NCBI RefSeq assembly: GCF_030684315.1
Contig: NC_081382.1
Coordinates: forward strand, 15,854,592-15,918,591
Direction: 5' to 3'
Origin: Stegostoma tigrinum
Lineage: Eukaryota
Length of the DNA stretch: 64,000 nt
The notes under the pieces are model-generated. The model saw only the letters and a list, made by a program, of their open reading frames with translations. It made no database searches and had not been told where the DNA came from. Shown piece after piece: positions 13,201 through 62,214 of this stretch; positions within the stretch are counted from its first letter, which is position 1, and each line of letters opens with the position of its first letter. A program made the translations under genes and the position numbers.

Positions 13201-13803
13201 CTGATTTGGGTCATATCTGGATTAGTTGTTAGGGAACACTTTAAGTACTATCAGATGATGTTAAATGCACACTTCCTACCTTAATCCCATTAACTTTATA
13301 ATTGCACTGTTAAATGTAGCCATGGGCAATTTCATTATGCCACTTAATCCAGGAAGCACCCATGCTTCCATCTTCATTTTTTCAGGATACATTAGGTAAT
13401 TGTGTAGTCATGCTATGCAAGTAATATTAGGTCTTGAACAATGAAAGAGATTGTTTGTTTGTAAACTGAATGAGGCAAAGTGTTTGGAATTGAGAATGAG
13501 ATCCCATGGAGTCTATCAGAGGAGCAGTACTTACTTCACCTGGCATAAAGTCTTATTGAAAGTAATAAGAAAGGCAATTCCCTTCTTGCTTGCCCAGGAT
13601 TCCTCTTATTTATTCGGAATGTTATTATGAGGCAAAGAATTCACTTGTCATGTCAATATTTTCTCCATCCCATGCAAACTTGAGGTTTTTTTTAATCCTT
13701 CAATTAAGTTATCAGGCTTATGATAATGTGTCTTCAACTGGCTGAAGCAAAAACCTTTCAGTTCTGAAGGACAACTGGGTTGAATACCAGGCTTGAAAAT
13801 TTA

Positions 13804-14011
13804 TTCAGAGATAGTACGAACTGCGGATGCTGGAGAATCTGAGATAACAAGGTGTAGAGCTGGATGAACACAGCAGGTCAAGCAGCATCAGAGGAGCAGG
13901 AAGACTGAGGTTTCAGGCCTAGATCCTTCTTCAGAAAGGGTCTAGGCCTGAAACGTCAGCCTTCCTGCTCCTCTGATACAGCTTGGCCTGCTGTGTTCAT
14001 CCAGCTCTACT
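13804..14011. mobile_element. Head-to-head (tails-out) inverted PLE derivative with 13-bp TSD, nested in a family-2 hammerhead element
   Basis: Left arm (minus) has the full tail and right arm (plus) is truncated at CCAGCTCTAC; arms meet near 13935. TSD GCTTGAAAATTTA at 13791-13803 and 14012-14024. The host element continues ACTCTGTTTTCTCTCCACAGATGCTGCCAGAC to about 14115. Confidence 0.9.
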
Positions 14012-15369
14012 GCTTGAAAATTTAACTCTGTTTTCTCTCCACAGATGCTGCCAGACGTGGTAAGTTTCTCCAGCATTTTTTTGTGTTTGTTGCAAATTTC
14101 AATCATCTGCAGTATTTTATTTATGTATTTATTTATTTTATTTGTAAGAAAGATTGCTGTGTATCAATGGAAATATCTAACTTAGAGTTGGAAAGACTGG
14201 GAGTTGAGAATGTACAGTTCATAGGGTTAATAATGTAAGTCCATTTCATCTTGAGACAAATCAGATACAAGGAACGTACGCAATTGTTATCTGGGTTAAT
14301 GCTTTTCAAACACATAAGAATATCAACCTCATTTAAGATAAGCCTCTGATGTTCTAATAGTGAGACTAAAAGAGTGAACAAAGTGCAAAGTTGTAGAGAC
14401 TATCACAACTTTCTAAAGGAAAGCACTTTCTCAATTAATGTAATCCATTTGAAGGAATCAACTATACACAGTGATTATTAACAATCTAGATTTAAACTGT
14501 GTCCAATTCCAGCTGGAATGTAGAGACTAGCATGGACAAGTTGGGTCAAATGGCCTGTTTCTGGACTGCACTTTCTATGGAAAGACCACTTGGCACTTCC
14601 AATGAGTTAAAATGCTGTAGTTTTGCATTGTATGGGGTAGGAAGGCATTGAATGAGCCATGATTTCTATGTTTTTTCTGAAGACAAGTCTGCCAACTGCT
14701 GGTAAAACTAAGGGATGTAAGAAATAAAGACTGATAACTTCACAGAAGCAAATTAGCATTGAGAAACAAGGTGACATTTATATTTCACTTTTAGAGCAAC
14801 TTTGAATCGGGCACTTAAAACATGAGCATTTATTATTGACTGCCATTCTCATTATTAAATTTGTTTTCACAATTCAAACCATCTACATTTGAATTTACCT
14901 TTATGTAAATACTTCTGAGTCATTGGATTGTTGGAGAAAGACATCATTCTGAGGTCAGCCTTGGTGGAGTAAACATTTTCTCTGGCTCTCTGCTAAAAGC
15001 TTTTAATGACATGTAAAAGAATTTATGACTTATTTGTAATACAATGCTCACTGCAGAACCCCTGCTTATTTCAAAACAGCTGCTTGCTGTTCAGATTGCT
15101 GTATATCATGCATGTAAAGACAACTTTACTTCGTACAATCATTTTTCTTCTTTTGGTAGAGATGAATTTTACCTGCTCCTTAATTCAAAGGCTGCTCAGC
15201 TGTGAATAACGTTCACTGAGTCATGTAATCTGCAGTTACATCCACACAACATATCACTGATTTCTTAAATTCATCATTGAAGGTAAGTGATTTCTGCAGA
15301 GACAAGAAAAGTAGTTCGACTGTAGTAGTACCTTCAGATTATTCCAAACCAGTTCTCAAGTGATAACTG

Positions 15370-15427
15370 GATGTGGTCCTAACATGCTGCTTGGACTGCT
15401 GTGTTCATCCAGTTCCACACTTTGTTA
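15370..15427 (+). mobile_element. Minimal PLE tail insertion
   Basis: ATGCTGCTTGGACTGCTGTGTTCATCCAGTTCCACACTTTGTTA; 16-bp TSD with two mismatches (15354-15369, 15428-15443). Confidence 0.7.
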
Positions 15428-16527: not shown

Positions 16528-18521
16528 CCCTGCCCCACCGAACTCATCTCCACCTATCTGGACTCCATTTTCTCCCCTTTGGTCCAGGAACTCCCCATCT
16601 ACGTCCGTGACACCACCCACGCCCTCCACCTCCTCCAGGACTTCCAATTCCCTGGCCCCCATCACCTCATTTTCACCACGGACGTCCAGTCCCTATACAC
16701 CTGTATTCCGCATGCAGATGGCCTCAAGGCCCTCCGCTTCTTCTTGTCCCGCAGGCCTGACCAGTCCCCCTCCACCGACATCCTCATCCGCCTAGCCGGA
16801 CTCGTCCTCACCCTCAACAACTTCTCTTTCGATTCCTCCCACTTCCTAAAGACAAAGGGGGTGGCCATGGGCACCCGCATGGGCCCCAGCTGTGCCTGCC
16901 CCTTTGTAGGTTACGTGGAACAGTCCCTCTTCCGCACCTACACAGGCCCCAAACCCCACCTCTTCCTCCATTACATTGATGACTGTATCGGCGCCGCCTC
17001 TTGCTCCCCAGAGGAGCTCGAACAGTTCATCCACTTCACCAACACCTTCCACCCCAACCTTCAGTTCACCTGGGCCATCTCCAGCATACCCCTCACCTTC
17101 CTGGACCTCTCAGTCTCCATCTCAGGCAACAGCTTGTAACTGATGTCCATTTCAAGCCCACCGACTCCCACAGCTACCTAGAATACACCTCCTCCCACCC
17201 ACCCTCCTGCAAAAATTCCATCCCCTATTCCAATTCCTCTGCCTCCGCCGCATCTGCTCCCACGATGAGGCATTCCACTCCCGCACATCCCAGATGTCCA
17301 AGTTCTTCAAGGACCGCAACTTTCCCCCAACAGTGGTCGAGAACGCCCTTGACCGCGTCTCCCGTATTTCCCGCAACACATCCCTCACACCCAGCTCCCG
17401 CCACAATCGCCCAAAGAGGATCCCCCTCGTTCTCACACACCACCCCGCCAATCTCCGGATACAACGCATCATCCTCCGACACTTCCACCATCTACAATCC
17501 GACCCCACCACCCAAGACATTTTTCCATCCCCACCCTTTGTCTGCTTTCCGGAGAGACCACTCTCTCCGTGACTCCCTTGTTCGCTCCACACTGCCCTCC
17601 AACCCCACCACACCCGGCACCTTCCCCTGCAACCGCAGGAAATGCTACACTTGCCCCCACACCTCTTCCCTCACCCCTATCCCAGGCCCCAAGATGACTT
17701 TCCACATTAAGCAGAGGTTCACCTGCACATCTGCCAATGTGGTATACTGCATCCACTGTACCCGGTGTGGCTTTCTCTATATTGGGGAAACCAAGCGGAG
17801 GCTTGGGGACCGCTTTGCAGAACACCTCCGCTTTGTTCGCAATAAACAACTGCACCTCCCAGTCGCAAACCATTTTCACTACCCCTCCCATTCTTTATAT
17901 GACATGTCCATCATGGGCCTCCTGCAGTGCCACAATGATGCCACTCGAAGGTTGCAGGAACAGCAACTCATATTCCGCTTGGGAACCGTGCAGCCCAATG
18001 GTATCAATGTGGACTTCACAAGCTTCAAAATCTCCCCTTCCCCCACTGCATCCCAAAATCAGTCCAGTTCGTGCCCTCCCCCCACTGCACCACACAACCA
18101 GCCCAGCTCTTCCCCTCCACCCACTGCATCCCAAAACCAGTCACACCTGTCTCTGCCTCCCTAACCTGTTCATCCTCTCACCCATCCCTTCCTCCCACCC
18201 CAAGTCGCACCTCCATCTCCTACCTACTAACCTCATCCCACCTCCTTGACCTGTCCATCTTCCCTGGACTGACCTATCCCCTCCCTACCTCCCCACCTAT
18301 ACTCTCCTCTCCACCTTTCTTCTTTTCTCTCCATCTTTGGTCCGCCTCCCCCTCTCTCCCTATTTATTCCAGAACCCTCACCCCATCCCCCTCTCTGATG
18401 AATGGTCTAGGCCCGAAACATCAGCTATTGTGCTCCTGAGATGCTGCTTGGCCTGCTGTGTTCATCCAGCCTCACATTTTATTATCTTGGATTCTCCAGC
18501 ATCTGCAGTTCCCATTATCAC
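16528..18521 (+). mobile_element. 5'-truncated Penelope-like element (RT + GIY-YIG), frameshifted
   Basis: RT motifs DVQSLYTCIP, GVAMGTRMGP, LHYIDD; linker PCNRRKCYTC; GIY-YIG NVVYCIHC..CGFLYIGET. 9-bp TSD TGCCTTAAA (16519-16527, 18522-18530); full-length tail. Confidence 0.95.
18393..18425 (+). ncRNA. Minimal hammerhead ribozyme motif (degenerate) in PLE 3' UTR
   Basis: CTGATGA at 18395-18401, stem II GGTC-TA-GGCC, GAAAC at 18415-18419. Cleavage triplet is ATC (CpG-decayed GTC). Confidence 0.7.
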
Positions 18522-18804
18522 TGCCTTAAATACTGATGGTTTCCAAAATGCATGTTGAAGAATGATGACATTTTGTTAGTGAGTTTCGTATTGTTATCAG
18601 TAGAAAGCTTGAGTACGGGAGTCCAATGCCTCTGAATCTCTTCCTAACAGCCAGTACCGAATGCTGTGCATAAAATGATCCAGATTGCAGGATGAAACTA
18701 TTTATGCAATGAATGAACTGTGGACATGCACACGTACAACACAGGATCACTGGCAGTTATTGAGCAAAGACTTGGCATGCCGCAAATTCATCATGAATGA
18801 ATAT

Positions 18805-21851: not shown

Positions 21852-21996
21852 TGGAGACAGCAAGAACTGCAGATGCTTAAGTCAGAGTCAATACAGCATG
21901 GAGCTGGAGGCACACAATAGGTCACGCAGCATCAGATGAGCGGGAGATTCGAGGTTTCAGGTTGGAACCCTTCATCAGAACAGCTCCACACTCTAT
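21852..21996 (-). mobile_element. Short PLE derivative (family 3) with small inverted second arm
   Basis: Minus strand reads CTGATGA-A-GGGTTCCAACCT-GAAAC. 21981-21999 is the reverse complement of the tail at about 21888-21906. TSD TGAGCCTATTCTACT / TGAGCTTAATCTACT (21837-21851, 21997-22011). Confidence 0.7.
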
Positions 21997-22201: not shown

Positions 22202-22848
22202 CAGAGAACATAGAACATTACAGCATGGTAAAGGCCCTTCGGCCCTTGATGTTGCGACGACTTATGAAACCAATCTGAAGCCCATCTAACCTACACTATT
22301 CCATTACCATCCAATGACCATTTAAATGCCCTTCATGTTGGCGAGTCTACTCCTGTTGCAGGCAGGGCATTCCACGCCCTTACTACTCTCTGAGTAAAGA
22401 ACCTACCTCTGACTTCTGTCCTATATCTATCACCCCTCAATTTAAAGCTATCTCCCCTCGTGCTAGCCATCTCCATCAGAGGAAAAAGGCTCTCACTGTC
22501 CACCCCATCTAATCCTCTGGTCATCTTGTATATCGCTATTAAGTTGCCTCTCAACTTTCTTCTCTGTGATGAAAACAGCCTCAAGTCCCTCAGCCTTTCC
22601 TCATAAGACCTTCCCTCCATACCAGATAACATCCTGGTAAATCTCCTCTGCACCCTTTCTAATGCTTCCACATCCTTCCTACAATGCGGCGACCAGAACT
22701 GTAGGCAATACTCTGAGTGCGGCCGCATCAGAGTTTTGTACCGCTGCAACATGACCTCATGGTTCCAAAACTCAATCCCTCTACCAATAAAACCTAACAC
22801 ACCGTACACCTTCTTAATAACACTATCAACCTGGGTGGCAACTTTCAG
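22202..22848 (-). mobile_element. CR1 LINE ORF2 3' fragment
   Basis: ORF 22333-22809: YKTLMRPHSEYCLQFWSPH...[11 protein letters not shown]...RGRFFTQRVVRAWNALP; AGAACATAGAAC tail. Confidence 0.95.
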
Positions 22849-25800
22849 GAATAAACCTTGGTATTACGCCTCCATTCTGCATTACCCTTATAAATTGAGT
22901 AGTTTCCCCATAATGAAGTATTTAACTTTTGATCAATTTCAGCATCTTGATTAGACTACCCCTCAATCTTCAGTACTGAATATAATGCTATATTAACTGA
23001 TGCTGTTCTTGAATTAGCTGTTCAATGAAAGCAAGTTGTGGTTTTATTTCCTTTACTCACCCTTAGCAGACACTGCTTGCTAGTTTTTCTTTGTATAAGT
23101 AGCATTGATATCCTAAGTTCTTTATAATGGACATCTTCATTCTGTTACTGTAAGCAGCAGCCAAAACCCATAGTGCATTATTCTAAACACAAAGGCCTTC
23201 AGTTTCCTCCAAGGCCACATTCTGCAAGTTGTGGCCAAAATTTGCTGGACACTGCCCATAGACAATAATGAAAGTGCACTCAAGTTTCTATGAAAACCTT
23301 CTCTAAGTCTGTATGGTCATGCAGTGAGTAAGGTCAAAGCTGGGAAAATAAAAAAAACAGCATTTGGCCAATTCCCCAATTTATTCCTGTTCAATTCCTC
23401 TTTTCTGGGATGGGAGCTAACTGAGGTGATGGCATCCTGTCTGGCAACAGTAGGAATCTAATTATGGCATTTAATGAGATAATTTGCATCACATTTGCTA
23501 TTACAGCACCATCTTCTTAGTTTTGCTTAGTTTTTCCAAACCCTGCCATATCAGAATTCTGACATCTTGGAGGCAAGAGATTGGAAACACATGACATTTG
23601 GTATCCAATTAATTTGGTTACCAGAACTTTAAATGTACACTTCAAAAAAAGGGAAGGATGTTGCTGTATTCACTTATACTAGTATTCACTGGAGAGTGAT
23701 GTCTTTGACAGAGCTGAGAGTAATGGAATTTCCAAGGATATCTTACTACTGTTTCTGCTTGGGTCTCAGTAAGGCTCTTATAGCTGGAATAATAAGGATT
23801 TCCTTAATTTCCCTAGCAATAGTCTGTGAAATTCACGCCTCTGGAACACTTCTGCCATTCTTAATTGATTATCAAAAAATCAAAAACAACCTGCTAATCA
23901 GCCTCCTGTAAGATTTTAATAGCAGGCACACTGCTGTAACCAGTAGTTTGGAGTGTGAGTACAGATGTGACTTTCAAACACTTTCAAAGTGCTGAAGTTT
24001 CCAGCCTCTGGCTGTAGCAACTAGTTGTTTACTCGTCATCTCTCCAGATAGCTGTCTTCGTTCACTCCTCCAGCAAACCCAAGATGGGATGGCCAAAAGG
24101 TGAAATGTTCTTCAGGTTTCATTTTACTGATTAGTGATTTCTGCAGCAGGCATGTCTGGAGATTCATTTGAGTGTTGGTAACTGCTAATCGGCTGATCAC
24201 AACTGAATTCATCACACCTTGATGTTCAGATGAATCTGAGCAAGTTTCGGTGAATCTGACCAAGTCTAATTGGAAACTCACGTTTCAATCCTGGGAACAC
24301 CTATTTGATTTGCGGGCAGGGGTTGGTCCAGGTGAGAGATTCAACAACCAGATTTACAAAATTGTGACTACTTTGGTGCAAAGTTATTGTGGGAAGGTCT
24401 CATTGGCACCTCAAATATCTGTTATGCATTTGACATGGTCATATTTAGGTTAAGCTATTATCCATGTGGAAATCAAGTAGGAAGTTAGGGCCTTTGTTAC
24501 AAAGATTGCCATGTTTGGCCGGGGCCACTGCTGTTGTTGTTTCAACTTACATTTCCAAGAGTGGCATTTAATACCCTCCCCTTTTATGGCAGAGACCTTT
24601 TATTGGGCATGAAGGTTGTGGGTGAACCCTCACTGCTTTCTTGTCTCTGACTTAATTAAATCCCTGCCCAAGCCAGCATTCAAACTAGGTTCTTGGTCCT
24701 GGGTTTGGCCCATTTACCTGTAGTTAAGAGCCGGATTGGCACTTAATACAGTAGGATGTTCTGTAAGAGGACAACGTGGGGCACTCGCTGACTTTCTGAC
24801 CAGTGGGCAATGTCACCACTGCCACTATTATTAATTATGCCCTAAAGACTTGAAATACCATTGACACTGCAACATGATTATTGGGCTTCACCTAGACATT
24901 TTTTCCCAAGCATATGTCAAAATCCAAATGGAATACCTAATGGGCATTTCTGCATTTAATTAGCAGGTGCTCAGTGCAAGTTAAAATATTACTTTAAATT
25001 AGTTTTAGAGTAATATACTTGGCAAAATTGGTGCAAGCAACTGTAGTCATTCATTTACGCATAGAATTTCAAAAACAACTTAAAACTTTTCAGTTTACGC
25101 TTGCACATAAGGAATTTGAAGCACAGTTTGTACTTATATTGTTGACGAAAGTCATATCATCTTGTGTCAGAGTTGGCTGAAATTCTAGTGAATCCATGTT
25201 GTACAAGACTGTTCCGTATGAAGAGCATGTTAGGTTACACTGCTGTTCCAATTGGGATGACAGGCATCGTTAGTATTTGTGGTCATTACTGATTGGTCCC
25301 TCTTCTAATGCTTCCTTTTGTAATCACAAATTCAGTGTCAAAACTACATCTTGCTACATTGTGTGACCAACTGGGGGAAATGTTACCATGACACTGAGTT
25401 TCCTCTGCAAGTCCTTTGAAATCACAAAGAACAGAAAGGTACTTGGAGGATGTTGCATTTGAGCTTCTGAATTGAAAAGAACCACCCCAGATATTCCAAA
25501 CATTTAGATATTTCTGCATGATGAAAACTGAACTCTGAGATTTTTTAAAAGTAGCTTTGGAGCAGGTGAAAAATCTGGGAATGTTGTGCTTAACTCAAGG
25601 AACATGTACTTCAGAAGGTAGAGACTGCCAGTCCCATTATAACTGAACAACACAATATGTATCAGTTTTTAATAGGTACAGACTGACAACCACATAGTGC
25701 ACAGACCCAAGAGAGCTCCAGCTAATTGCACAGCTGCTCTAAGAAAGCAGGGCTCTTAATTGCATATGTTGGCACTTTTAGCAACTAACCAATCTTCAAA

Positions 25801-28283: not shown

Positions 28284-28460
28284 AAAACTGAAAGAACTAT
28301 GAATGCTGTAAATCATAAACAAAAACAAAAGTTACTGGGAAAGCTCAGCAGGTCTGGCAGCATGTCTTGTTCTAAGGAAGAGTCACTGGACCTGAAACGT
28401 TAACTCTGATTTGTCTTCACAGATGCTGCCAGATCTTCAACGACTTCTGTTTTTGTTTCT
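28284..28460. mobile_element. Head-to-head inverted PLE derivative (family 2)
   Basis: Minus arm 28284-28363 carries the full tail. The plus arm from about 28370 reads CTAAGGA-A-GAGTCACTGGACCT-GAAAC-GTT...AGATGCTGCCAGA and ends early. No clean TSD. Confidence 0.7.
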
Positions 28461-29599: not shown

Positions 29600-30100
29600 A
29601 TAAAATGTGAGGCTGGATGAACACAGCAGGCCCAGCAGCATCTCAGGAGCACAAAAGCTGACGTTTCAGGCCTAGACCCTTCATCAGAGAGGGGGATGGG
29701 GAGAGGGTTCTGGAATAAATAGGGAGAGAGGGGGACGTGGACTGAAGATGGAGAGAAAAGAAGATAGGTGGAGAGGAGAGTATAGGTGGGGAGGTAGGGA
29801 GGGGATAGGTCAGTCCAGGGAAGACGGACAGGTCAAGGAGGTGGGATGAGGTTAGTAGGTAGGAAATGGAGGTGCGGCCTGGGGTGGGAGGAAGGGATGG
29901 GTGAGAGGAAGAACAGGTTAGGGAGGCAGAGACAGGCTGGGCTGGTTTTGGGATGCAGTGGGTGGAGGGGAAGAGCTGGGCTGGTTGTGTGGTGCAGTGG
30001 GGGGAGGGGACGAACTGGGCTGGTTTTGGGATGCGGTGGGGGAAGGGGAGATTTTGAAGCTGGTGAAGTCCACATTGATACCATTGGGCTGCAGGGTTGC
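29600..30100 (-). mobile_element. 5'-truncated PLE (ORF C-terminus + 3' UTR), short-type 3' end
   Basis: LQPNGINVDFTSFKISPSPT; hammerhead core at 29660-29687. Perfect 12-bp TSD AGTCTCAAGGTG (29588-29599, 30101-30112). Confidence 0.95.
29658..29689 (-). ncRNA. Minimal hammerhead ribozyme motif, near intact
   Basis: CU-CUGAUGA-A-GGGUCUAGGCCU-GAAAC-GUC-AG. Confidence 0.75.
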
Positions 30101-31593: not shown

Positions 31594-31726
31594 CAGAGAT
31601 AGTAGGAACTGCCGATGCTGGAGAATCTGAGATAACGCAGTGTGAAGCTGGATGAACGCAGCAGGCCAAGCAGCATCAGAGGAGCAGGAAAGTTTGACGT
31701 TTCGGGTCGAGGCCCTTCTTCAGAAA
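31594..31726 (-). mobile_element. Short PLE derivative with fully intact hammerhead core and full tail
   Basis: UUU-CUGAAGA-A-GGGCCUCGACCC-GAAAC-GUC-AAA (core 31696-31723), then tail to CCTACTATCTCT. Confidence 0.85.
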
Positions 31727-32099
31727 TTTCACAGTGCTTGAAAGGCTAGTGATAGATAAAATAGCACTGAAAATAATTGGTGGAACTTTTCCAAAAGTGG
31801 AAAAGGCACCATGCCACATTAGCTTGCACTCCAGAATTCTGAGGCAAATCGGAAAGGAACTACTCAAGACCCTGAACACAGTATTACAAAAAATCCATGA
31901 ATGTGTAAAGCATGTACAAATGTAGCATGTATCATTGAGAAAGAACACTTCATTGCCAGGTCATAAATTTGTGTATAAATGCAAGTTTTTGCAGGTTAGT
32001 TAAAAGACAAGAATCTATACTAGTTTAAAAAACAAAGATGAGACTGTGAACATCCTTCATGGGTTAATGCTCGCACTATGGTTTTGCAGGGAGCTTATA

Positions 32100-40370: not shown

Positions 40371-41399
40371 AAACCTGCATTGGGCATGCAATGCTGAGAA
40401 AGTTGATCTCAGTTGTGTGAGTAGTCAAGGGAGGAATCCTCACAGATCACAGGGCAGGAATCAGAAAGACCAATTAAGTCAAACATATGTATTTAATAAG
40501 GAAGGACATTTTCTCTGGATTTTGAATAATTGTAAAGTGATATTGTTGGGGATTAAACAGGATTTTGTTTTTCCATTGTTTTAAAACATTTTCAACTGTG
40601 TGATATTTCGATAGGTTTACTGATTTTATTCTTTGGTTGTGTTGCGAAATATTGCATTGTTAAAATCAAATCTACAGCCTGTGGTCTTACGTTTCAGAGA
40701 AAGGCCATCACTTAAAGTTAAATAAAAGTCAAAACATAAATCTATTAAGCCAGATTTAATTCTGTGATGTGCCTTTCCAGAAGTAACTTCAGTTGCGATC
40801 ATTAATGCAATGTATTACACAGCTAATGAACCACATTATACTTTGAAGTTACAGCCTATGAAATCAGTTATCATTGACACACAAAAATGAACAAATGTTG
40901 GCTGAGGGAGATGCAGGATCTCGTTTTGAAATGATACCCTGAGATTGTTTACTTCCACCCAAACAACAGCTAAATTATCACCTATGGTGTCTCTGCTAAC
41001 TCTGCAGCCTCTCAGTGTTGTCCTGAAATGTAGGTATTTGGTATTATAATGTTGCAATTGTGTTTGAACCTGTGAGCTGCTAACTGAATCAACCTGTAAT
41101 TTAACCCTCGGCCTATCAACATCCTTCGATCATATCTTGTATTATTCACATAGTCCCAATGAATCAGTAAGAATGTGATGGTGCCTTAGGTCCTTTTGCT
41201 GATAACAAATGCAATTCACAGATGAATGCTAGTGTTAGAGACATGGAAGTTACAGCAGGAGTAGATGATTTGGCCCTTCAAGTCTGCACTGACATTCAAA
41301 TAGATATTGGCTAATCTTCTATCTCAATGCCATTCTCCAGTATTACCCCTTGTTCCTTGATATAATGTAAAAATAATCTTGAAATATTTAACCAGGTCA

Positions 41400-42910
41400 G
41401 GTTATTCCAACTATGTATCAGGAGATATAGTTTGGAAGGAGGGAGGGAGTTTTGCATGGAAAAAATTAAAGGACGGAAGGGCTCAGCAGACGTTTTTATT
41501 CAAGTTTCCAAAAGAACTAATAGAGTGTGTTGAAAGGCCTAGGAATCTAACGTTAGGCATACCAGATAAGAAGACAGCTATGAGAGGATGGTGCAGTCAG
41601 TGCAGGACTGACGATGTTGTATTTTAATGCAAGAGGTGTACAAGCCATGGTAAATGAGCCCTTAGAGCGGAGTGAAATGGGCAAGTACAATGTTGTGGGT
41701 ATCTTAAAAACGTGGCTGTAAAGGAATCAGGGCTGGGAGATAAATAGCCAAGGATATTCATCCTATCAAAAGGACTGGCAGATTGACAAAGGAGGCAAGG
41801 TTGCCTGTTAGTAAGAAATGAAATTAAATCAATAGCAAGAAGTGATATAGAGTCAAAAGGCTTGGAATCTGTATAGGCAGGGTTGAGGTGCCTCAGGAGA
41901 AAAACCTTTGATGGGATTTGTGCGCAGGCCCCCTAGCAGGAGTCAGAATGTGGGGAAGAAAATAAATCAGGCGATAACGAAGCCATGTAAGAAAGGCACT
42001 TTCATAATAATCATTGCGGACTTCAATATATAGGTGAACTGGGAAAATCAAATTGGTAGTGGATACCAAGGAAAGGAATTCATGGAATGTCTATGAGATT
42101 TTGTTTGGAGCAGCTTGTGGTATTTTCCACTAGGGAACAGACAATTCTGGATTTAAAGATGAGTAATGAGGCAGACTTGATTAGGGAGATTAAGATGAAG
42201 GAATTCTTAGGAACCAGTGATCATAATATGATAGTGTGAGATCATGCACTTTGGTTGGGAGAATAAGAGCTGTAGAATATTTTCTAAATAGGGAAAGGCT
42301 TCAGAAATCTGAAACACCAAGGGACTCGGGAGCCCTTGCTCAGCATTTTGTTAAAGTTAACATGCAGGCCCAGTTGGCAGTTGAAAAGGAATATGCAACA
42401 TTGTATTAATTTCAAGAGGACAAGAATACAGGACCAGAGATGTGCTACTGTAGCTGCATGAGGCAGTGTTCAGACTGCATTTAGAAGGAAGGGGTGGTGG
42501 TGCGAATATCATTGAAACCTATAGAATATAGAAACTTATAGAATAGGACTGGATAGAGTGGACATGGAAAAAATGTTTCCACCAGTATGAGAGACGAGGA
42601 CCTGAGGGCACAGCCTCAAAGTGGTGACGACCCTTTAGAACTGAGATGAGGAAGAATTTCTTCAGCTAGAGGGAGGTGAATCTATGGAACTCATTGCTGC
42701 AGAAGGCTGTGGAGGTCAAGTCATTCAGTGTGTTTAAGACAGAGATGGAGAGATGGATAGTGGATAGATACTTGATTAATAAGAGGATCAAGGGTTACAG
42801 GGAGGAGGTAGGAAAATGGGATGGGAAATAAATCAGCCATGATCAGTTAGCGGAGCAGACTCAATGAGCTATATTGCTTAATTCTTCTCCTAAATCTTGT
42901 GGTCCTGTGG
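41400..42910 (+). mobile_element. CR1 LINE fragment(s): endonuclease region joined to late RT and 3' end
   Basis: Decayed APE motifs (GGACTTCAAT, CAATTCTGGATTTA, AGTGATCATAATATG) to about 42235. Then an abrupt jump to ATCATGCACTTTGG (MHFG) and GAGATGAGGAAGAATTTCTTC through the 3' UTR. Confidence 0.8.
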
Positions 42911-47397: not shown

Positions 47398-47809
47398 CTT
47401 CCCCTCCACCCACTGTATCCCAAAACCAGTCCAGCCTGTCTCTGCCTCCCTAACCTGTTCTTCCTCTCACCCATCCCTTCCTTCCATCCCAAGCCACACC
47501 TCCATCCACTACCTACTAACCTCATCCCACCTCCTTGACCTGTCCATCTCCCCTGGACTGACCTATCCCCTCCCTACCTCCCCATCTATACTCTCCTCTC
47601 CACCTATCTTCTTTTCTCTCCATCTTCGGTCCGCCTCCCCCTCTCTCCCTATTTATTGCAGAACCCTCACCCCATCCCCCTCTCTGATGAAGGGTCCAGG
47701 CCCGAAACATCAGCTTTTGTGCTCCTGAGATGCTGCTGGGCCTGCTGTGTTCATCCAGCCTTACATTTTATTATCATGGATTCTCCAGCATCTGCAGTTC
47801 CCATTATCA
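47398..47809 (+). mobile_element. 5'-truncated PLE 3' end, full tail
   Basis: Near-identical to 18110-18520; hammerhead core 47684-47711. Perfect 15-bp TSD CAGCTTTATTATTCT (47383-47397, 47810-47824). Confidence 0.95.
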
Positions 47810-49813: not shown

Positions 49814-49827
49814 CAGAGCATAGGTGA

Positions 49828-51943
49828 TAACAAAGTGTGAAACTGTGAACACAGCAGGCCAAGCAGCATCTCAGGAGCACAAAAACTGATGTTTCGGGCC
49901 TAGACCCTTCATCAGAGAGGGGGATGGGAAGAGGGACCTGAAATAAATAGGGAGAGAGGGGGAGGCAGATCGAAGATGGGTAGAGGAGAAGATAGGTGGG
50001 GAGGAGATAGGTCAGTCCGGGGAGGATGGACAGGTCAAGGAGGCGGGATGAGGTTGTTAGGTGGGAAATGGAGGTGCGGCTTGAGGTGGGTGGAGGGGAT
50101 AGGTGAGAGGAGGAACAAATCAGGAAGGGGGGATGAGCTGGGCTGGTTTTGGGATGCAGTGGGTGGGGGGATGAGCTGGGCTGATTTTGGGATGCAGTGG
50201 GGGAAGGGGAGGTTTTGAAGCTTGTGAAGTCCACGTTGATACCATTGGGCTGCAGGGTTCCCAAGTGGAATATGAGTTGCTGTTCCTGCAACCTTCGGGT
50301 GGCGTCATTGTGGAACTGTAGGAGGCCCATGATGGACATGTCATCTAAGGAATGGGAAGGGGAGTTGAAATGGTCCGCGACTGGGAGGTGCAGTTGTTTA
50401 TTGTGAACCAAGCAGAGGTGTTCTGCAAAGCTGTCCCCAAGCCTCCGCTTGGTTTCCCCAATGTAGAGGAAGCCCCACCTGGTACAGTGGATACAGAATA
50501 CTACATTGGCAGATGTGCAGGTGAACATCTGCTTAATATAGAAAGGCATCTTGCGGCCTGGGATAGGGGTGAGGGGGGAGGTGTGGGGGCAAATGTAGCA
50601 CTTCCTGTGATTGCAGGGGAAGGTGCCGGGTGTGGTGGGGTTGGAGGGGAGTGTGGAGCGGACAAGGGGGTCACGGAGAGAGTGGTCTCTCCGGAAGGCA
50701 GACAAAGGTGGGGATGAAAAAATGCCTTGGGTGGTGGGGTCGGATTGTAGATGGCGGAAGTGTCGGAGGATGATGCGTTGTATCCAGAGGTTGGTGGGAT
50801 GGTATGTGAAGACGAGGGGGATTCTTGCAGGGGCGGGATGTCAGGGATGTGTTGCAGGAAATGCTGGAGACACGGTCAAGGGCGTTCTTGACCACTGCGG
50901 TGGGGGAAGTTGCGGTCCTTGAAGAACGCGGCCATCTGGGATGTGCAGGAGTGGAATGCCTCATCGTGGGAGCAGATGCAGTGGAGGCGAAAGAATTGGG
51001 AATAGTGGATGGAATTTTTGCAGGGGGATGGGTTGGAGGAGGTCTTTTCTAGGTAGCTGTGGGAGTCGGTGGTCTTGAAATGGACATCAGTTTCTAGCTG
51101 GTCGCCTGAGATGTCCAGGAAGATGAGGGATGTGTTGGAGATGGCCCAGGTGAACTTGAGGTTGAGGTGGAAGGTGTTGGTGAAGTGGACGAACGGTTCG
51201 AGCTCCTCTTGGGAGCATGAGGCAGCGCCGATATAGTCATCAATGTAACGGAGGAAGAAGTGGAGTTTGGGGCCAGTGTAGGTGCGGAAGAGGGACAGTT
51301 CCACATAACCTACAAAGAGGCAGGCATAGCTTGGGCCCATGAGGGTACCCATGGCCACCCCCTTTGTCTGTAGGAAGTGGGAGGAATCGAAAGAGAAGTT
51401 GTTGAGGGTGAGAATGAGTTCGGCTATGCCGATGAGGGTGTCAGTGGAGGGGGACTGATCGGGCCTGCGGGACAGGAAGAAGCAGAGGGCCTTAAGGCTA
51501 TCTGCATGAGGAATACAGGTGTATAGGGACTGGACATCTATGGTGAAAATGATGTGTTGGGGACCAGGGAATTGGAAGCTCTGGAGGAGGTGGAGGGCGT
51601 GGGTGGTGTCACGGACGTAGCTAGGGAGTTCCTGGACCAAGGGGGAGAAAATGGAGTCCAGACAGGTGGAGATGAGTTCGGTGTGGCAGGAGCAGACGGA
51701 GACAACAGGTCGGCCAGGGCAGGCGGGTTTGCGGATTTTGAGAAGGAGATAGAAACGGGCAGTGCGCGGTTGGGGAACAATGAGGTTGGAGGCTGTGGGT
51801 GGGAGGTCCCCTGAGGTGATTTGGTCATGGATGGTATTGGAGGTAATGTTTTGGTGCTCGGGGGTGGGATCATGATCAAGGGGGCAGTAGGAGGAGGTGT
51901 CGGAGAGTTGGCGTTTGGCCTCGGCGATGTAGAGGTCAGTGCT
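49828..51943 (-). mobile_element. PLE left arm of inverted composite (RT + GIY-YIG, short-type 3' end)
   Basis: ORFs 50876-51640 (RT, LRYIDD) and 49785-50705 (GIY-YIG); hammerhead core 49888-49915. Confidence 0.95.
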
Positions 51944-51948
51944 TTGAC

Positions 51949-53577
51949 CTACTTCCTACAGGCAAAGGGGTTGGCCATGGGTGCCCTCATGGGCCCAAGC
52001 TATGCCTGCCTCTTTGTAGGTTATGTGGAACAGTCCCTCTTCCGCACCTACACTGGCCCCAAACCCCACCCCTTCCCCCATTACATCGATGACTGTATCG
52101 GCACTGCCTCTTGCACCAAAGAGGAGATCGGACATTTCATCCACTGCACCAACATCTTCCACTTCAACCTCAAGTTCACCTGGGCCATCTCCAACACATC
52201 CCTCACCTTTCTGGACCTCTCTGTCTCCATCTCAGGCAACCAGCTAGAAACTGATGTCCATTTCAAGCCCACCGACTCCCACAGCTACCTAGAATACGGC
52301 TCCTCCCACCCAACCCCCTGCAAAAATTCCATCCCCTATTCCCAATTCCTTCACCTCCGCCGCATCTGCTCCCAGGATGAGGCTTTCCACTCCCGCACAT
52401 CCCAGATGGCCGCCTTCTTGAAGGACCACAACTTCCCCCCTCCGTAGTGGTCAAGAACGCCCTTGACAGTGCCTCCCACATTTCTGGCAACACATCCCTC
52501 ACACCCTGCTCCCGCAATAACCACCCTAAGAGAATCCACCCCACCATACCACCCCACCAACCTCTGGATACAACGCATCATCCTCCATCACTTCCGCCGT
52601 CTACAGTCCGACCCCACCACCCAAGACATTTTTCCAACCCCACCCTTGTCTGCCTTCCGGAGAGATCACTCTCTCTGTGACTCCCTTGTTCGCTCCACAC
52701 TCCTCTCCAACCCCACCACACCCAGCACCTTCCCCTGCAACCGCAGGAAATGCTACACTTGCCCCCACACCTCCTCCCTCACCCCTATCCCAGTCCCCAA
52801 GATGCATTTCCATATTAAGCAGATGTTCACCTGCACATCTGCCAATGTAGTATACTGTATCCACTGTACCTGGTGTGGCATCCTCTACATTGGGGAAACC
52901 AAGCGGAGGCTTGGGGTCCGCTTTGCAGAACACCTCCGCTCGGTTCGCAATAAACAACTGCACCTCCCAGTCGCAAACCACTTCCACTCCCCCTCCCATT
53001 CTTTAGATGACATGTCCATCATGGACGTCCTACAGTGCCACAATGATGCCACCCGAAGATTGCAGGAACAGCAACTCATATTCCACTTGGGAACCCTGCA
53101 GCCCAATGGTATCAATGTGGAGTTCACAAGCTTCAAAACCTCCCCCTCCCCCACTACATCCCAATACCAGCCCAGCTCATCCCTTCCCCCCACTGCATCC
53201 CAAAACCAGCCCAGCTTGCCCCCGCCTCCCTAACCTGTTCTTCCTCTCACCTATCCCCGCCTCGCACCTCCATTTCCCACCTACTGACCTCATCCCGCCT
53301 CCTTGACCTGTCCGTCCTCCCCGCACTGACCTATCCCCTCCCTACCTCCCCACCTATACTCCCCTCTTCACCTATCTTCTCCTCTACCCATCTTCAGTCT
53401 GCCTCCCCCTCTCTGCTTATTTATTTCAGAAACCTCTCCCCATCCCCCTCTCTGATGAAGGGTCTAGGCCAGAAATGTCAGCTTTTTTGCTCCTGAGATG
53501 CTGCTTGGCCTGCTGTGTTCATCCAGCCTCACACTTTGTTATCTTGAATTCTCCAGCATCTGCAGTTCCCATTATCT
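51949..53577 (+). mobile_element. PLE right arm of inverted composite (partial RT + GIY-YIG, full tail)
   Basis: GLAMGALMGPSYA...HYIDD and NVVYCIHC..CGILYIGET; hammerhead core 53452-53479. A single 14-bp TSD CAGAGCATAGGTGA (49814-49827, 53578-53591) encloses both arms. Confidence 0.95.
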
Positions 53578-55929: not shown

Positions 55930-58316
55930 ATGGCCGACGACCTCATCGCTCTGCCCACAACCAGCAACCCCGGAGACGACAGCCACACTGAGCCCTGCCG
56001 CATCTTCACCATCCCCCAGACCTCCCACTGACTGAGGACAAATGGTCAGCCCAAAGCAAGGGGCTCACCTTTGTCTTCCTACAACCACACATCAACGAAT
56101 CCCAGTCACGGTTGGACATAGAGCAGTTTTTCCACCGCCTTCGCCTCCACGCTTACTTCTTCAACCGGGAACCTAACCCTCCCTCCACTGACCCCTTCGC
56201 CCACTTCCAACACAAGTCCTCCTCCTGGACACCACCCCCAGGACTCTTACCCTCCCTCGACCTCTTCACCTCCAACTGCCGTCAAGACAATAACCGCCTC
56301 AACCTCTCCACCCCTCTCACCCACTCCACCCTCTCCCCTGCAGAACGGGCAGCCCTCCGCTCCCTCTGCTCCAACCCCAAACTCACCATCAAACCCGCAG
56401 ACAAGGGTGGCGCAGTGGTAGTATGGTGCACTGACCTCGACATCGCCGAGGCCAAACACCAACTCTCCGACACCACCTCCTATCGCCCCCTCGATCATGA
56501 CCCCACCCCCAAGCACCAAACCATCATCTCCAACACCATTCATGACCTCATCACCTCAGGGGACCTCCCACCCACAGCCTCCAACCTCATTGTTCCCCAA
56601 CCCCGCACGGCCCGTTTCTATCTCCTTCCCAAAATCCACAAACCTGCCTGCCCTGGTCGACACATTGTCTCAGCCTATTCCAGCCCCACCGAACTCATCT
56701 CCACCTATCTGGACTCCATTTTCTCCCCTTTGGTCCAGGAACTCCCTAGCTACGTCCGTGACACCACCCACTCCCTCCACCTCCTCCAGGACTTCCAATT
56801 CCCTGGCCCCCATCACCTCATTTTCACCATAGACGTCCAGTCCCTATACACCTGTATTCCGCATGCAGATGGCCTCAAGGCCCTCCGCATCTTCTTGTCC
56901 CGCAGGCCCGACCAGTCCCCCTCCACCGACACCCTCATCCGCCTAGCCGAACTCGTCCTCACCCTCAGCAACTTCTCTTTCGATTCCTCCCACTTCCTAC
57001 AGACAAAGGGAGTGGCCATGGGCACCCACATGGGCCCCAGCTATGCCTGCCTCTTTATAGGTTACGTGGAACAGTCCCTCTTCCGCACCTACACAGGCCC
57101 CAAACCCCACCTCTTCCTCCGTTACATTGATGACTGTATCGGCACTGCCTCTTGCTCCCCAGAGGAGCTCGAACAGTTCATCCACTTCACCAACACCTTC
57201 CACCCCAACCTTCAGTTCACCTGGGCCATCTCCAGTACATCCCTCACCTTCCTGGACCTCTCAGTCTCCATCTCAGGCAACCAGCTTGTAACTGATGTCC
57301 ATTTCAAGCCCACCGACTCCCACAGCTACCTAGAATACACCTCCTCCCACCCACCCTCCTGCAAAAATTCCATCCCCTATTCCCAATTCCTCCGCCTCCG
57401 CCGCATCTGCTCCCACGATGAGGCATTCCACTCCCACACATCCCAGATGTCCAAGTTCTTCAAGGACCGCAACTTTCCCCCCACAGTGGTCAAGAACACC
57501 CTTGACCACGTCTCCCGCATTTCCCGCAACACATCCCTCACACCCTGCCTCTGCCACAACCGCCCAAAGAGGATCTCCCTCGTTCTCACACACCACCCCA
57601 CCAACCTCCGGATACAACGCATCATCCTCTGACACTTCCGCCATCTACAATCCGACCCCACCACCCAAGACATTTTTCCATCCCCACCCTTGTCTGCTTT
57701 CCGGAGAGACCACTCTCTCCATGACTCCCTTGTTCGCTCCACACTGCCCTCCAACCCCACCATACCCGGCACCTTCCCCTGCAACCGCAGGAAATGCTAC
57801 ATATGCCCCCACACCTCCATCCTTACCCCTATCCCAGGCCCCAAGATGACTTTCCATATTAAGCAGAGTTTCACCTGCACATCTGCCAATGTGGTATACT
57901 GCATCCATTGTACCCGGTGTGGCTTCCTCTACATTGGGGAAACCAAGCGGAGGCTTGGGGACCGCTTTGCAGAACACCTCCGCTCAGTTCGCAATGAACA
58001 ATTGCACCTCCCAGTCGCAAACCATTTCCACTCCACCTCCCATTCTTTAGATGACATGTCCATCATGGGCCTCCTGCAGTGCCACAATGATGCCACCTGA
58101 AGGTTGCAGGAACAGCAACTCTTATTCCACTTGGGAACCCTGCAGCCCAATGGTATCAATGTGGACTTCACCAGCTTCAAAATCTCCCCTTCCCCCACCA
58201 CATCCCAAAACCAGCCCAGTTCGTCCCCTCCCCCCACTGCACCACACAACCAGCCCAGATCTTCCCCTCCACCCACTGCATCCCAAAACCAGTCCAACCT
58301 GTCTCTGCCTCCCTAA
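55930..58316 (+). pseudogene. PLE RT/GIY-YIG ORF disabled by one frameshift and two nonsense changes
   Basis: ORFs 56112-57632, 57690-58100 and 58104-58316 are in one frame. Both TGA stops (57630, 58098) are CGA in the 16.5-kb copy. One frameshift near 56015. Confidence 0.9.
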
Positions 58317-58675
58317 CCTGTTCATCCTCTCACCCATCCCTTCCTCCTACCCCAAGACGCACCTCCATCTCCTACCTACTAACCTCATCCCACCTCCTTG
58401 ACCTGTCCATCTTCCCTGGACTGACCTACCCCCTCCCTACCTCCCCACCTATACTCTCCTCTCCACCTATCTTCTTTTCTCTCCAACTTCGGTCCGCCTC
58501 CCCCTCTCTCCCTATTTATTCCAGAACTCTCAGCCCATCCCCCTCTCTGATGAATGGTCTAGGCCCGAAATGTCAGCTTTTGTGCACCTGAGATGCTGCT
58601 GGGCCTGCTGTGTTCATCCAGCCTCACATTTTATTATCTTGGATTCTCCAACATCAGCAGTTCCCATTATCACTG
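55930..58675 (+). mobile_element. Near full-length Penelope-like element (Neptune-type)
   Basis: N-terminal SKGLTF, KPADKGGAVVV, FYLLPKIHK, DVQSLYTCIP, GVAMGT, LRYIDD, linker PCNRRKCYIC, GIY-YIG domain, 3' UTR with hammerhead (58547-58574) and full tail. No clear TSD. Confidence 0.95.
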
Positions 58676-59413
58676 ACAAGCTGTTTATCAGGCTTCTATC
58701 TATATTACTGATTCCATCATGAACTACATTTTTTTTGATTATTCTCCTACCCTTTCTCAAAATTTCTTTTCAGTGTTTTCCATGATAATATTCACCCTGT
58801 TACCAAAGATACATCAAAAAATTTATGACTCTTGGATATGATATATGAAAGGTTGCTTTCTCTTCTGCTTGTTCAGTGTCTCAATATTATTGTACCTTTT
58901 ATTCTTAACGTATACCTAAGTCTCATTCCTCTGGATAGTCCTTTGCTCAATAGGTTCATTATTAAGTGCCAACACTCTCCTGAGTCCTATTATAGTCCAT
59001 CTCAGTGCTAAGGGTAGGATTTTATCAGCCCTCTGGAGATATACTGGGAGGTAGGAGGGCTTGCAAAATGGCAGTGGAAGGCAATAAGAGGAATTTTGAC
59101 ATTCTCTTGTCGGCATAGGATATTGAGAGATGAGAATTGCAGTGTTGGCTGGAGGTTAGCAGTCAATTAATCCAATTGACAAACCCACCTGCACTTTACC
59201 CTCCCAAGATAAATGGGAAGCCATCAACTAATGTGAGGCAGATTCCTGACAAAGAGAAGGAGCCCTGATTTGCAGGGAGGGGGCACCCCCTCGTGGCATT
59301 GGCTGCCCCCGACTCTGGAGAGTACACACCGTTTCTTCGATGGGTCCCATCTGTCTGATCCTGGTACATTTTTTGAAAAAGTCAGCCTTTGAGGGCACCT
59401 CAACATGAAGGCA

Positions 59414-59617
59414 GAGATAGTTGGAACTGCCGATGCTGGAGAATCTGAGATAACAAGGTGTAGAGCTGGATGAAAACAGCAGGCCAAGCAGCATTGGAGG
59501 AGCAAGAAAGCTGACATTTTAGGTGTGGACGAAGCAACCTAGGCCTGAAATGTCAGCCTTCCTGCTCCTATGATGCTGCTTGGCCTGCTGTGTTCATCCA
59601 GCTCTACACCTGGTTAT
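59414..59617. mobile_element. Head-to-head inverted PLE derivative with 15-bp TSD
   Basis: Left (minus) arm has the full tail; right (plus) arm stops at TGGTTAT. TSD CTCAACATGAAGGCA (59399-59413, 59618-59632). Confidence 0.9.
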
Positions 59618-62214
59618 CTCAACATGAAGGCATACTTTTTTGCTCCCTTACAGCCTCAGCTGTTGCTACTTCACCAAGACTTCATAGTTGCCAGCTGTCT
59701 GATAGGTGGGACAGCTTGGATAGGCCATACACAGTTGTAGACAATTCCTGCACTGGCTTCTTCATTAGCTACCATTAATAAAATCCTGTTCACAGTACTC
59801 CTGTCCTCCTGCCTGGAACAAGACTTGCATTTGGCAGGAGAATGACTTGCTGGTAAAACTCAACCATGTACCTTCATTCATTGTAGTAATTTATGATCTC
59901 CCTGAGTTGTTTTCCTCAGCTGGTCTTGCAGATCGTCTCCTGTTTTCTTTTAGTCTACAATATCCTGCTGTTTTGAACTATTTAGCACTACTGTTCTGAT
60001 GACTCCGTTCTGGAAAGTGCAACTAAAGACTCTCTGCTCCAGAGACAACACTTGTCTGCAGTTAGTGGTAATATGTTGGTCCTTCATGAACTGAGGATCT
60101 GTCATTGCTCATATGCTCCACTGAATGAATACATGGTTTGCTGCACTGGTATCTCCTTGTGTCTAACTGCAGTATGTTACTATTGTCCTAATGTTAAACT
60201 AAAGGTCCATTTAAACCAAACCTCACTCACTCAACATAATTATCACTTATTGATAGGAAACTTCTGCCGATTCCCTCTAATTGTGAACTCCTGCTGAAGC
60301 TAAACACCCCGATGTTCTGGTCTTTCATACTCCAATGGGCTCAGTTAGACAGCTGAAGACTACGTCAGGGAAAATACTGAGCAGTAACTCATCTCTTCTG
60401 ACTTCTCAACGTTGATTTACAGTTTAGTTATAATTTACAGTGAATGTTAATAACAATTCACAATTGGACTGCCATTGTAGTGCTTTGTCAGCGCTGAGTT
60501 TCGCAATGTGACATCTGTTATAATAAAGCAAATTCCACTTTCCATCATCTCCAGGCTTTCTTGTTGGCAATGGAGTGATCCAGTCTCTCAGACTGAGATT
60601 GTTACGTGAGGATAGTTCACAAAAGACTTACATCAATTCTTTTCATTCTGATAATGTCTGTTTGATACTTCCATCATCGTGAGCATAGGGCATGCTTGAT
60701 AGACCAGTTAATCTGTCTCTGTCTGCTGCTCTGGTATAATTCTAATATGTACTAAACACCACATTGGAAATTAAATGTGATCATATGAATAATCAAATTA
60801 TCACTTCAGGAGAAATTACAAAATTGCATTTTGCCTTCTCTGAGAATGAGACCTTTAATCTGTTTTACTTTTTATAAATTCAGAATGTCCACCAAAGTCT
60901 GAACCAGGTATTCATTCCCCAAGGATGACAGGTAGGAAGTAAATAACGCAATTTGGAGAACAAACCTGATTTTGCCATCTTTATTTTTACCAAGCATTAG
61001 GAAATTCCTACACCACATCACTTCTGAAATAAAATGCAAAAAACAATATAAAGTTTTTTTAAAATTTTGTGATTTCTGGAAATGTGATATAAAACTAGAA
61101 AATTGTAGAATCGCTTAGCAGTCATTTGGCATCCATGGAGAGAACTGAGAGGATAATATTTCGAGTGTGGGACATCCATTGGAACCAGGCCGTGTTATAA
61201 ATGAACAGCCATTTTTTTTAAGAAACCGGAATTTAGGGAGGTGGAAATAAAGACAAAAAACAAATTTAAACACCCCCACCAGTACTCAGCTCCACCTCAT
61301 AAGTATTCACCTGAGTAAGAATAAATGCATCGGACTATTAAGTGCTGAAGATGAAGACAGGCGCTGGCCTAGAAATTGAAATGATAATTGTGATAAGAAT
61401 TGAGATCAATTAAATACATTGATTTCCCTTTTTTGGCTTGTTGATATAATGACATTTTCTCTGTCATGATATTTTCATGCTTTCATTATAAATACAGAAA
61501 ACACTAGGTGAAATAGATGTCTGGGAAGGTGATGGTTGCCCTTACCATCTGGATGTTCCTTCTGGGAAGGATTCACTGAAATGTTGGGTGAAGAAACAAA
61601 AGGCATTAATACTTTCTGCAGGGTATCCATGGATTTTCCAACAGAGCCACTGTGATGGCTGAGAGAAAACCTGCAGAAATTTAATTCCACGTTGCTTTGT
61701 TTCAATCATTGATGGCAGACGACATCCTAACTTTAGAGAGCTGGTGCTGCTTGGTTGACTCTTCTAGCATGGCAAGGCCAAACTCAGCATAAGGTTGTCA
61801 ATATTGAGCAAAACCAGAGAATTACAGGATTGTGTTGAAACATTTCAATTGAATTCAGCTGGAACACTCAAATAAACTTGTTTCCATATTCAACGATTCC
61901 TGCTCTAAGTTCCTCAACAAGGAATGTCTCATACAGTGCAATACATGCAAGTGAAGGCATTGTCCAATCTATCAACTTTTGCATTAATGAGCAAGTGTAC
62001 ACAAAATATTTTTGTTCGTGTATTTGTATGAATTGTACAATCACCATGAAATAATGTAAATTTTATTTAAGTACCGGTTGTTCAATAAACCTTATTGAAA
62101 TTTGCATATTTTCTGTGGTGTTATTTATTGATGATCTGAAGTCTAGTGTAGGGTGAATGTATTTAATGGCCGAGTTAAAATTGTCTTTACCCATTTACTT
62201 CCTCCCTCCGCACT

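What the first reader, a model, noticed from the sequence alone, without database searches (positions are those of the whole stretch)
13791..59632. Recurrent 'one full tail + one short tail' rule across five inverted insertions and three families
Seen: inverted tails-out insertions at 13804-14011 (TSD 13 bp), 21852-21996 (15 bp, 2 mismatches), 28284-28460 (no clean TSD), 49828-53577 (14 bp) and 59414-59617 (15 bp). In each, one arm has the complete tail (...CAGCATCTGCAGTTCC..TATC) and the other stops roughly 30-45 nt earlier, often at the internal TTATC. Single-arm copies also fall into these two end classes: full at 18521, 31594, 47809 and 58675; short at 5287, 15427 and 29600. Inference: the PLE RT has two preferred initiation sites on the tail, one per target strand, so the palindromes are a regular product of the integration mechanism. 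I am not aware of this pairing rule being described, but cannot verify that.
Basis: partly seen in the sequence, partly recalled or inferred. Interest (0 to 1): 0.8.

Follow-up and report, generated by a model that had tools for sequence, protein, structure and literature searches.

The report
Staggered two-ended Penelope retrotransposon insertions
When this Penelope-like jumping gene inserts as two back-to-back copies, one copy almost always ends about 35 bases further out than the other; the lopsided end is already described, but its near-perfect regularity suggests both cut DNA strands start copying from one RNA, which can be tested.

Summary
These are insertions of endonuclease-bearing Penelope-like retroelements (PLEs; Neptune/Nematis-type motifs, minimal hammerhead). 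In about 1 Mb sampled from this genome, 103 of 104 inverted units flanked by a target-site duplication (TSD) pair an outer end with an inner end. The stagger has median 36 nt and minimum 27 nt. Two further same-end calls were dropped as artefacts. The rule holds in all three families and in 7 of 7 long units predicted before fetching. The pattern is known qualitatively: a 30-40 nt 'tail' on one inverted arm (PMC3846280, PMC8557442), bounded by two reverse-transcription start sites in vitro (PMC11167929). My searches found no count of the pairing. Best reading (0.55, inferred): both target nicks prime on one RNA at two sites that cannot overlap. Support: arms share subfamily (43 of 44); 5' ends are correlated; target flanks are alike on both sides; two fold-back copies run through the tail into target DNA without stopping at the inner site. 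Fold-back plus nuclease resolution is not excluded. Strand identity does not seem to choose the site. The scan noted similar fold-back PLE insertions in other genomes.

The parts
13804..14011 (.). inverted unit: outer-ended arm on - strand (+5), inner-ended arm on + strand (-45); TSD 13791-13803 / 14012-14024; inserted into an older hammerhead-bearing copy
21852..21996 (.). family B inverted unit: outer-ended arm 21852-21980 (-), 16-19 nt inner-ended arm (+); 15-bp TSD with 2 mismatches
28284..28460 (.). family C inverted unit: outer end left, inner end right, no TSD found
49828..53577 (.). long inverted unit: inner-ended arm 49828-51942 (-, 2115 nt, end -36), outer-ended arm 51948-53577 (+, 1630 nt, end 0); 14-bp TSD
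53450..53481 (+). minimal hammerhead motif of the pLTR (CUGAUGA core, stem II, GAAA, GUC)
   Evidence: read from the sequence; stem pairs counted; no Rfam hit at gathering score
53545..53577 (+). the optional 33-nt tail between the inner and the outer TTATCT
59414..59617 (.). inverted unit: outer-ended arm left (+1), inner-ended arm right (-36); 15-bp TSD
5198..5287 (+). single arm, inner end (-34), 13-bp TSD
15370..15427 (+). single arm, inner end (-32 to -36), degenerate TSD
16529..18523 (+). 5'-truncated PLE copy, outer end
29600..30100 (-). single arm, inner end (-38), 12-bp TSD
31594..31727 (-). single arm starting at the hammerhead, outer end
47398..47809 (+). single arm, outer end (0), 15-bp TSD
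55992..58675 (+). longest PLE copy in the window: RT (DKG motif, RVT_1), CX4CXXC linker, GIY-YIG/CCHH endonuclease, pLTR with outer end; ORF interrupted by stops

Best explanation
These are target-primed insertions of an endonuclease-bearing PLE in which both target strands are nicked about 14 nt apart and both 3' ends prime reverse transcription. SHOWN here: ends fall in two classes, and the two ends of one insertion are never within 27 nt of each other on the template. SHOWN elsewhere: a PLE protein nicks and extends both strands and starts at two internal RNA sites that bound the tail (PMC11167929). INFERRED: the two primers use one RNA molecule, probably held by a protein dimer, so they cannot take the same site. 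One takes the inner site (about -35, sometimes further in) and the other the outer site (0 to +10). The trailing enzyme displaces the leading cDNA, and the two antisense cDNA ends are joined head to head, often at short local palindromes. If one cDNA is very short or lost, a single-arm copy of either class results.
For: 103 of 104 TSD-flanked inverted units are outer+inner (binomial p 5e-30 against 0.5; 2e-27 with the two dropped calls kept); stagger median 36.5, minimum 27. The one exception is still staggered, -35/-76. Families: A 65 of 66, C 15 of 15, loci from the B query 10 of 10; 7 of 7 long units among 19 regions fetched after the prediction was noted, plus 6 of 6 bystanders. Single arms with a TSD come in both classes, 14 inner and 13 outer, so the inner site works alone. 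Both junctions show excess microhomology with the template: 1.74 against 0.60 nt (outer) and 1.27 against 0.43 nt (inner). Arms share subfamily in 43 of 44 pairs (re-pairing mean 13.4) and share 3 rare non-CpG variants against 0.24 expected. 5' ends are correlated (rho 0.60; 25 of 60 within 15 nt against 9.5). The inner arm reaches further 5' than the outer arm in 18 of 60, so it is not simply a copy of it. In L022 and L023 a fold-back copy of the outer arm runs through the whole tail and about 55 nt into target DNA, and a separate inner-ended arm closes the TSD.
Against: No step is shown directly for this element. Subfamily agreement also follows from two RNAs of one active locus or from later conversion between arms, and the rare-variant count is only 3. 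Correlated 5' ends and palindromic joints are what fold-back predicts too. Centre deletions of palindromes (recalled, not tested) could explain inner arms that reach further. The run-through argument rests on 2 loci, both picked by a full-tail query. How a trailing RT would displace the leading cDNA is assumed. The in vitro work is on a Poseidon-clade element whose start sites lie inside the ORF; here they lie upstream of the first ATG seen in L191.
Confidence: 0.55

Rival explanations
1. Fold-back and resolution. Only the outer site is primed in inverted units; the cDNA snaps back, is copied, and the hairpin is cut or joined at the inner site. This is close to the published suggestions of self-priming (PMC3846280) and endonuclease-mediated resolution (PMC8557442).
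For: Joints often sit in natural short palindromes with 0-10 nt overlap, and 25 of 60 pairs have nearly equal 5' ends. The arms share variants. Fold-back does occur (L022, L023). It gives outer+inner pairing automatically.
Against: It requires the inner arm to lie within the outer arm, but 18 of 60 inner arms reach 21-1061 nt further, and some outer arms are only 14-45 nt. Inner-ended single arms have clean TSDs (14 cases). The two visible fold-backs do not stop at -35. One unit has no outer end at all (-35/-76). The inner site is an RT start on RNA in vitro.
Confidence: 0.22
2. Two RNA molecules, asymmetric enzyme. A dimer carries two transcripts, possibly paired through the palindromic hammerhead stem III, and the first and second nick are hard-wired to different start sites (closest to the first reader's wording).
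For: It explains the pairing and the independent arm lengths. A dimer is predicted for the anole protein. One flank position, -4, differs between sides (T in 2 against 14 of 66).
Against: It gives no reason for the minimum stagger to hold when the inner start slips (-44 to -106, 14 cases) or when the outermost end is itself at -35. It does not predict correlated 5' ends outside the hotspot (rho 0.58, n=45). Flanks are alike at the other 9 positions.
Confidence: 0.18
3. Ascertainment or survival. Ends pair at random, but like-with-like palindromes are deleted, mis-assembled or missed by my search.
For: Perfect palindromes are unstable (recalled). Many arms have no recognisable TSD and were left out of the count. 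Without the TSD filter a few inner+inner neighbours appear in old copies (4 of 25 in family C, 1 of 13 in family B by BLAST ends).
Against: The caller treats both classes alike and did return same-class calls. Arms are 94% alike over their shared length whatever the end, so a 33-nt outer difference should not decide stability. Without the TSD filter the unselected sample still gives 16 of 19 mixed; two of the other three are internal pieces of larger units and the third is -34/-56 with no TSD.
Confidence: 0.05

Closest known systems
Complex insertions of canonical EN+ PLEs: inverted 5'-truncated copy plus optional 30-40 nt tail (PMC8557442 Fig. 2 legend and text; PMC3846280, Pen2a_Av)
   Same: Inverted head-to-head arms, TSD around the unit, tail on one end only, hammerhead in the pLTR. 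L191 is a 4463-nt unit of exactly the drawn form (inverted tailed pLTR, pLTR-ORF-pLTR without tail, 17-bp TSD).
   Different: The passages seen call the tail 'optional' or 'often' on one end and give no counts. Here it is 103 of 104, with a minimum stagger of 27 nt. They ascribe it to self-priming or nuclease resolution; the data here lean to two priming events.
PAc, Poseidon-clade PLE of Anolis carolinensis, in vitro (PMC11167929)
   Same: Both strands cut and extended; two internal RT starts that bound the tail; template runs on past the outer start.
   Different: Different clade (no CX2-5CxxC linker in Penelope/Poseidon). Starts lie 111-118 nt into the ORF there and upstream of the ORF here. 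Strands were read separately, so pairing within one molecule was not tested. They report no homology between cut DNA and RNA start; here both junctions show about 1 nt excess microhomology.
LINE-1 twin priming
   Same: Both target nicks prime on one RNA and give an inverted segment inside one TSD.
   Different: In L1 the second primer lands at variable internal sites and the two cDNAs copy different parts of the RNA. Here the second site is nearly fixed about 35 nt from the first and both cDNAs cover the same stretch.

Membership tests
Canonical EN+ Penelope-like elements | RT followed by a C-terminal GIY-YIG endonuclease | tested here: met
   RVT_1 E 1.4e-6 at 55992-57629 and GIY-YIG E 0.0014 just downstream. 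Both are slightly under Pfam's curated cut-offs, and the ORF is broken by stops.
Canonical EN+ Penelope-like elements | DKG motif before the RT core; CCHH finger with two Cys between GIY and YIG | tested here: met
   ADKGG and VVYCIHCTRCGFLYIG with downstream His residues in the translations; motif definitions from PMC8557442
Canonical EN+ Penelope-like elements | pLTR / partial tandem, inverted truncated copy, optional 30-40 nt tail, TSD | tested here: met
   L191, L002, L039; median TSD 14 bp
Canonical EN+ Penelope-like elements | Minimal hammerhead motif in the pLTR | tested here: met
   CUGANGA/GAAA/GUH core conserved over 30 copies of 4 groups; stems I and II 92-93% paired, one compensatory pair (8 cells). 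No Rfam hit; cleavage not tested.
Neptune/Nematis clades | CX2-5CxxC finger in the RT-EN linker | tested here: met
   CNRRKCYIC / CNRRKCYTC; definition in PMC8557442
Neptune/Nematis clades | RT phylogeny placing it in Neptune rather than Nematis | not tested
Penelope/Poseidon clade (PAc) | Absence of the linker finger | tested here: not met
   The linker finger is present
Twin priming on one RNA | Both arms copied from the same RNA molecule | tested here: inconclusive
   43 of 44 same subfamily, 3 shared rare variants against 0.24; one molecule cannot be told from one source locus
Twin priming on one RNA | Both nicks extended by RT in one complex | not testable with these tools
   Needs biochemistry

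The most novel reading that the evidence does not exclude
The main integration route of EN+ PLEs is an obligate, staggered double priming. A dimer nicks both strands about 14 nt apart and starts two cDNAs on one RNA at least 27 nt (typically 33-37 nt) apart, by a ruler that does not depend on the motif at the site. Inverted pLTRs, the one-sided tail and single-arm copies of both classes would then all be outcomes of one reaction.
Probability: 0.45. Interest if true: 0.7.

Novelty: new member of a known kind. Interest (0 to 1): 0.45.

Why it matters
How PLEs form their tandem and inverted insertions is named as an open problem in PMC8557442, and the one in vitro study leaves the steps after first priming unvalidated. 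A near-absolute pairing with a minimum stagger is a hard constraint on any model. It also explains why bulk assays see no strand difference: one-of-each pairing in either orientation gives identical start histograms on both strands. It can be tested in the published anole system. As a genome feature, the structure itself is ordinary for PLEs.

Tried and rejected
1) A special RNA fold defining the two sites: six single-copy folds gave z-scores from -0.83 to +1.34. A GAUGCUG/CAGCAUC helix around the inner site is 97% paired but has no change on both sides. Not claimed.
2) Target strand choosing the end class: flanks alike at 9 of 10 positions; position -4 differs (printed p 0.00, one of ten tests). 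Left open as a weak hint.
3) First arm-length estimate by BLAST coverage failed on palindromes and was replaced by a k-mer switch point.
4) First single-arm TSD caller overshot 5' ends and was replaced.
5) Two outer+outer calls were dropped after inspection: L124:365 lies in a 912-bp tandem duplication, and L092:1440 re-uses an arm already paired by a 17-bp TSD and closes on the older host copy.
6) Of the 19 regions fetched for long copies, 12 anchors gave no TSD-flanked inverted unit. One was a single arm with a TSD; L197 and L202 showed an outer-ended partner for an inner-ended anchor without a TSD. They are not counted.
7) PDB sequence search with the RT found nothing. Rfam found no hammerhead.
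8) Paper searches found no count of the pairing and no twin-priming model for PLEs. Subscription papers are not covered.
Full report
Identity. The window lies in a 3.2-Gb, 835-contig genome (G000, contig C37). The host was not identified; 'shark-like' comes only from earlier scan notes on similar elements. The repeats are ends of an endonuclease-bearing Penelope-like retroelement. The copy at 55992-58675 encodes an RT (RVT_1, E 1.4e-6) followed by a GIY-YIG domain (E 0.0014), both just under Pfam's curated cut-offs. It has the DKG motif, a CX4CXXC linker and the CCHH finger, which PMC8557442 gives as marks of the Neptune/Nematis clades. The 3' 130 nt hold a minimal hammerhead motif with one compensatory stem I pair across families. 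Positions below count from the last T of the outer TATCT (window 53577 = 0).

Window check. The main one: the outer end is not the end of the element. Internal copies in L002, L039 and L191 run on past it, in L191 to an ATG about 40 nt downstream. Both end classes are therefore internal positions of a tandem template.

End distribution. I took 400 kb of G000 without any tail query (20 stretches beside the window, 20 from four other contigs) and added the window. Of 107 arm ends, 48 lie at -10..0 and 40 at -38..-25, with none between -24 and -11 (histogram; BLAST ends, including a few internal junctions).

Pairing. Inverted units were called as a minus arm and a plus arm enclosed by one TSD, without regard to end class. 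The union of two callers over the window and loci L001-L130 gave 68 units: 65 outer+inner, 1 inner+inner, 2 outer+outer. The two outer+outer calls are a tandem segmental duplication (L124) and an arm already paired by a better TSD inside an older host copy (L092), and were dropped. Family C gave 15 of 15 and loci from the family B query 10 of 10 TSD-backed units. Without the TSD filter, 4 of 25 and 1 of 13 neighbours scored inner+inner by BLAST ends in old copies. I then noted a prediction and examined 19 regions for long copies whose far end had been out of range: 7 anchors closed as TSD-flanked inverted units of 0.3-4.5 kb, all outer+inner, and 6 bystander units were too. Total 103 of 104, p 5e-30 against the 50% ceiling of random pairing, or 103 of 106 with the dropped calls. 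The stagger has median 36.5 nt, quartiles 34-41, minimum 27. Inner ends lie at -28..-42 in 90 units and at -44..-106 in 14. The one exception is staggered too (-35/-76). The rule is better put as 'two starts never within about 27 nt' than as 'two fixed sites'. This is a sample of about 1 Mb, partly ranked by likeness to window copies, not a genome-wide count.

Single arms. TSD-flanked single arms are 14 inner and 13 outer. Several carry 8-25 nt inverted remnants at the 5' junction. The remnant is of the opposite class in L046:1694 (score 28) and window 21852; others are too short to trust. Among TSD-resolved insertions in the unselected sample, 24 are inverted and 12 single, so the inverted form is a main product. 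Many arms have no recognisable TSD and were not classified.

Mechanism. Both junction types show about three times the chance microhomology between target and template (1.74 against 0.60 nt; 1.27 against 0.43 nt), as expected if both are priming events. The target flanks show the same A-rich pattern on both sides, with one of ten positions differing, which fits a symmetric pair of nicks with a median 14-bp offset. The arms come from one source: same subfamily in 43 of 44 classifiable pairs (re-pairing mean 13.4, maximum 25), and 3 shared rare variants against 0.24. Their 5' ends are correlated (rho 0.60, n=60; 0.58 outside the hammerhead hotspot), yet neither arm is nested in the other: the outer arm reaches further in 17, the inner in 18, and 25 are within 15 nt. 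Two loci show what a fold-back does. In L022 and L023 a sense copy of the outer arm runs through the full tail and about 55 nt into inverted target flank, and a separate inner-ended arm closes the TSD. These points favour two priming events on one RNA, the inner start leading and the outer start trailing (0.55). That order and the dimer are inference. Fold-back with resolution at the inner site remains possible (0.22), because joints sit in short palindromes and centre deletions could blur nesting. Two RNAs on an asymmetric dimer gets 0.18.

Literature. PMC11167929: I read the main text, figure legends and the start of the methods (parts 1-2 of 4); a term search of its three text supplements found nothing and its supplementary figures were not seen. 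It shows that a Poseidon-clade protein cuts and extends both strands and starts at two internal sites bounding the tail, with no apparent difference between strands. That bulk result does not test pairing within a molecule. [quoted passage not shown] PMC8969392 (passages) repeats the description. Seven searches found no count of the pairing or twin-priming model for PLEs. The 2005 and 2006 reviews that defined the tail are outside the library and unseen. L1 twin priming and palindrome centre deletion are recalled. Earlier scan notes report like fold-back PLE insertions in other genomes; they are unchecked leads.

Verdict. The element and the one-sided tail are known. What this adds is the strictness, the minimum stagger, its persistence in a family without the TATC motif, and genomic evidence leaning to double priming on one RNA, which the existing in vitro system could decide. 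Interest 0.45.

Noticed in passing
unselected sample, e.g. window 5195, 13940, 31727: 5' ends pile up at the upstream edge of the hammerhead: 23 of 60 young arms start at -135..-120, and only 3 at the presumed cut site (-97/-96). Could mark an RNA 5' end or an RT block.
   Followed up: partly
L022:1271-1724; L023:1496-2781: Three-part insertions with an inverted copy of about 55 nt of the target flank captured inside the element (fold-back run-through).
   Followed up: partly
L002:1503-2225; L039:4808-5775; L021; L127:4398: Short, internally deleted tandem unit of about 370 nt (pLTR, tail, start of the 5' region, next pLTR), apparently a non-autonomous derivative; both arms carry the same unit.
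   Followed up: no
L191 (G000:C3:60008301-60013100): Full-length-type unit of 4463 nt with 17-bp TSD; ORF broken by stops and frameshifts; the first ATG lies about 40 nt downstream of the outer RT start.
   Followed up: partly
window 13760-14120; L092; L091; L074: PLE ends inserted into older hammerhead-bearing PLE ends, suggesting some homing into their own pLTRs.
   Followed up: no
target flanks of 66 units: A at -8/-7 outside the TSD on both sides (35-42 of 66); T at -4 is rarer on the outer-end side (2 against 14).
   Followed up: partly
window 6397-6469 (+): Rfam tRNA match (39 bits), perhaps the head of a tRNA-derived SINE.
   Followed up: no
window 22333-22863 (-) and 45111-45575 (-): Fragments of another, LINE-type RT (RVT_1 E 6e-8 at 45114-45575); they look CR1-like from recall.
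   Followed up: no
window 39964-42233: Old 70-79% inverted repeat, about 400 nt arms, unrelated to the PLE tail; possibly a DNA transposon.
   Followed up: no
window 9395-9615: Sequence near 9195-9395 appears again inverted near 9415-9615, not PLE-derived.
   Followed up: no
L085, L086, L089, L097: The same insertion with the same flank on four contigs (segmental duplicates or haplotigs).
   Followed up: no
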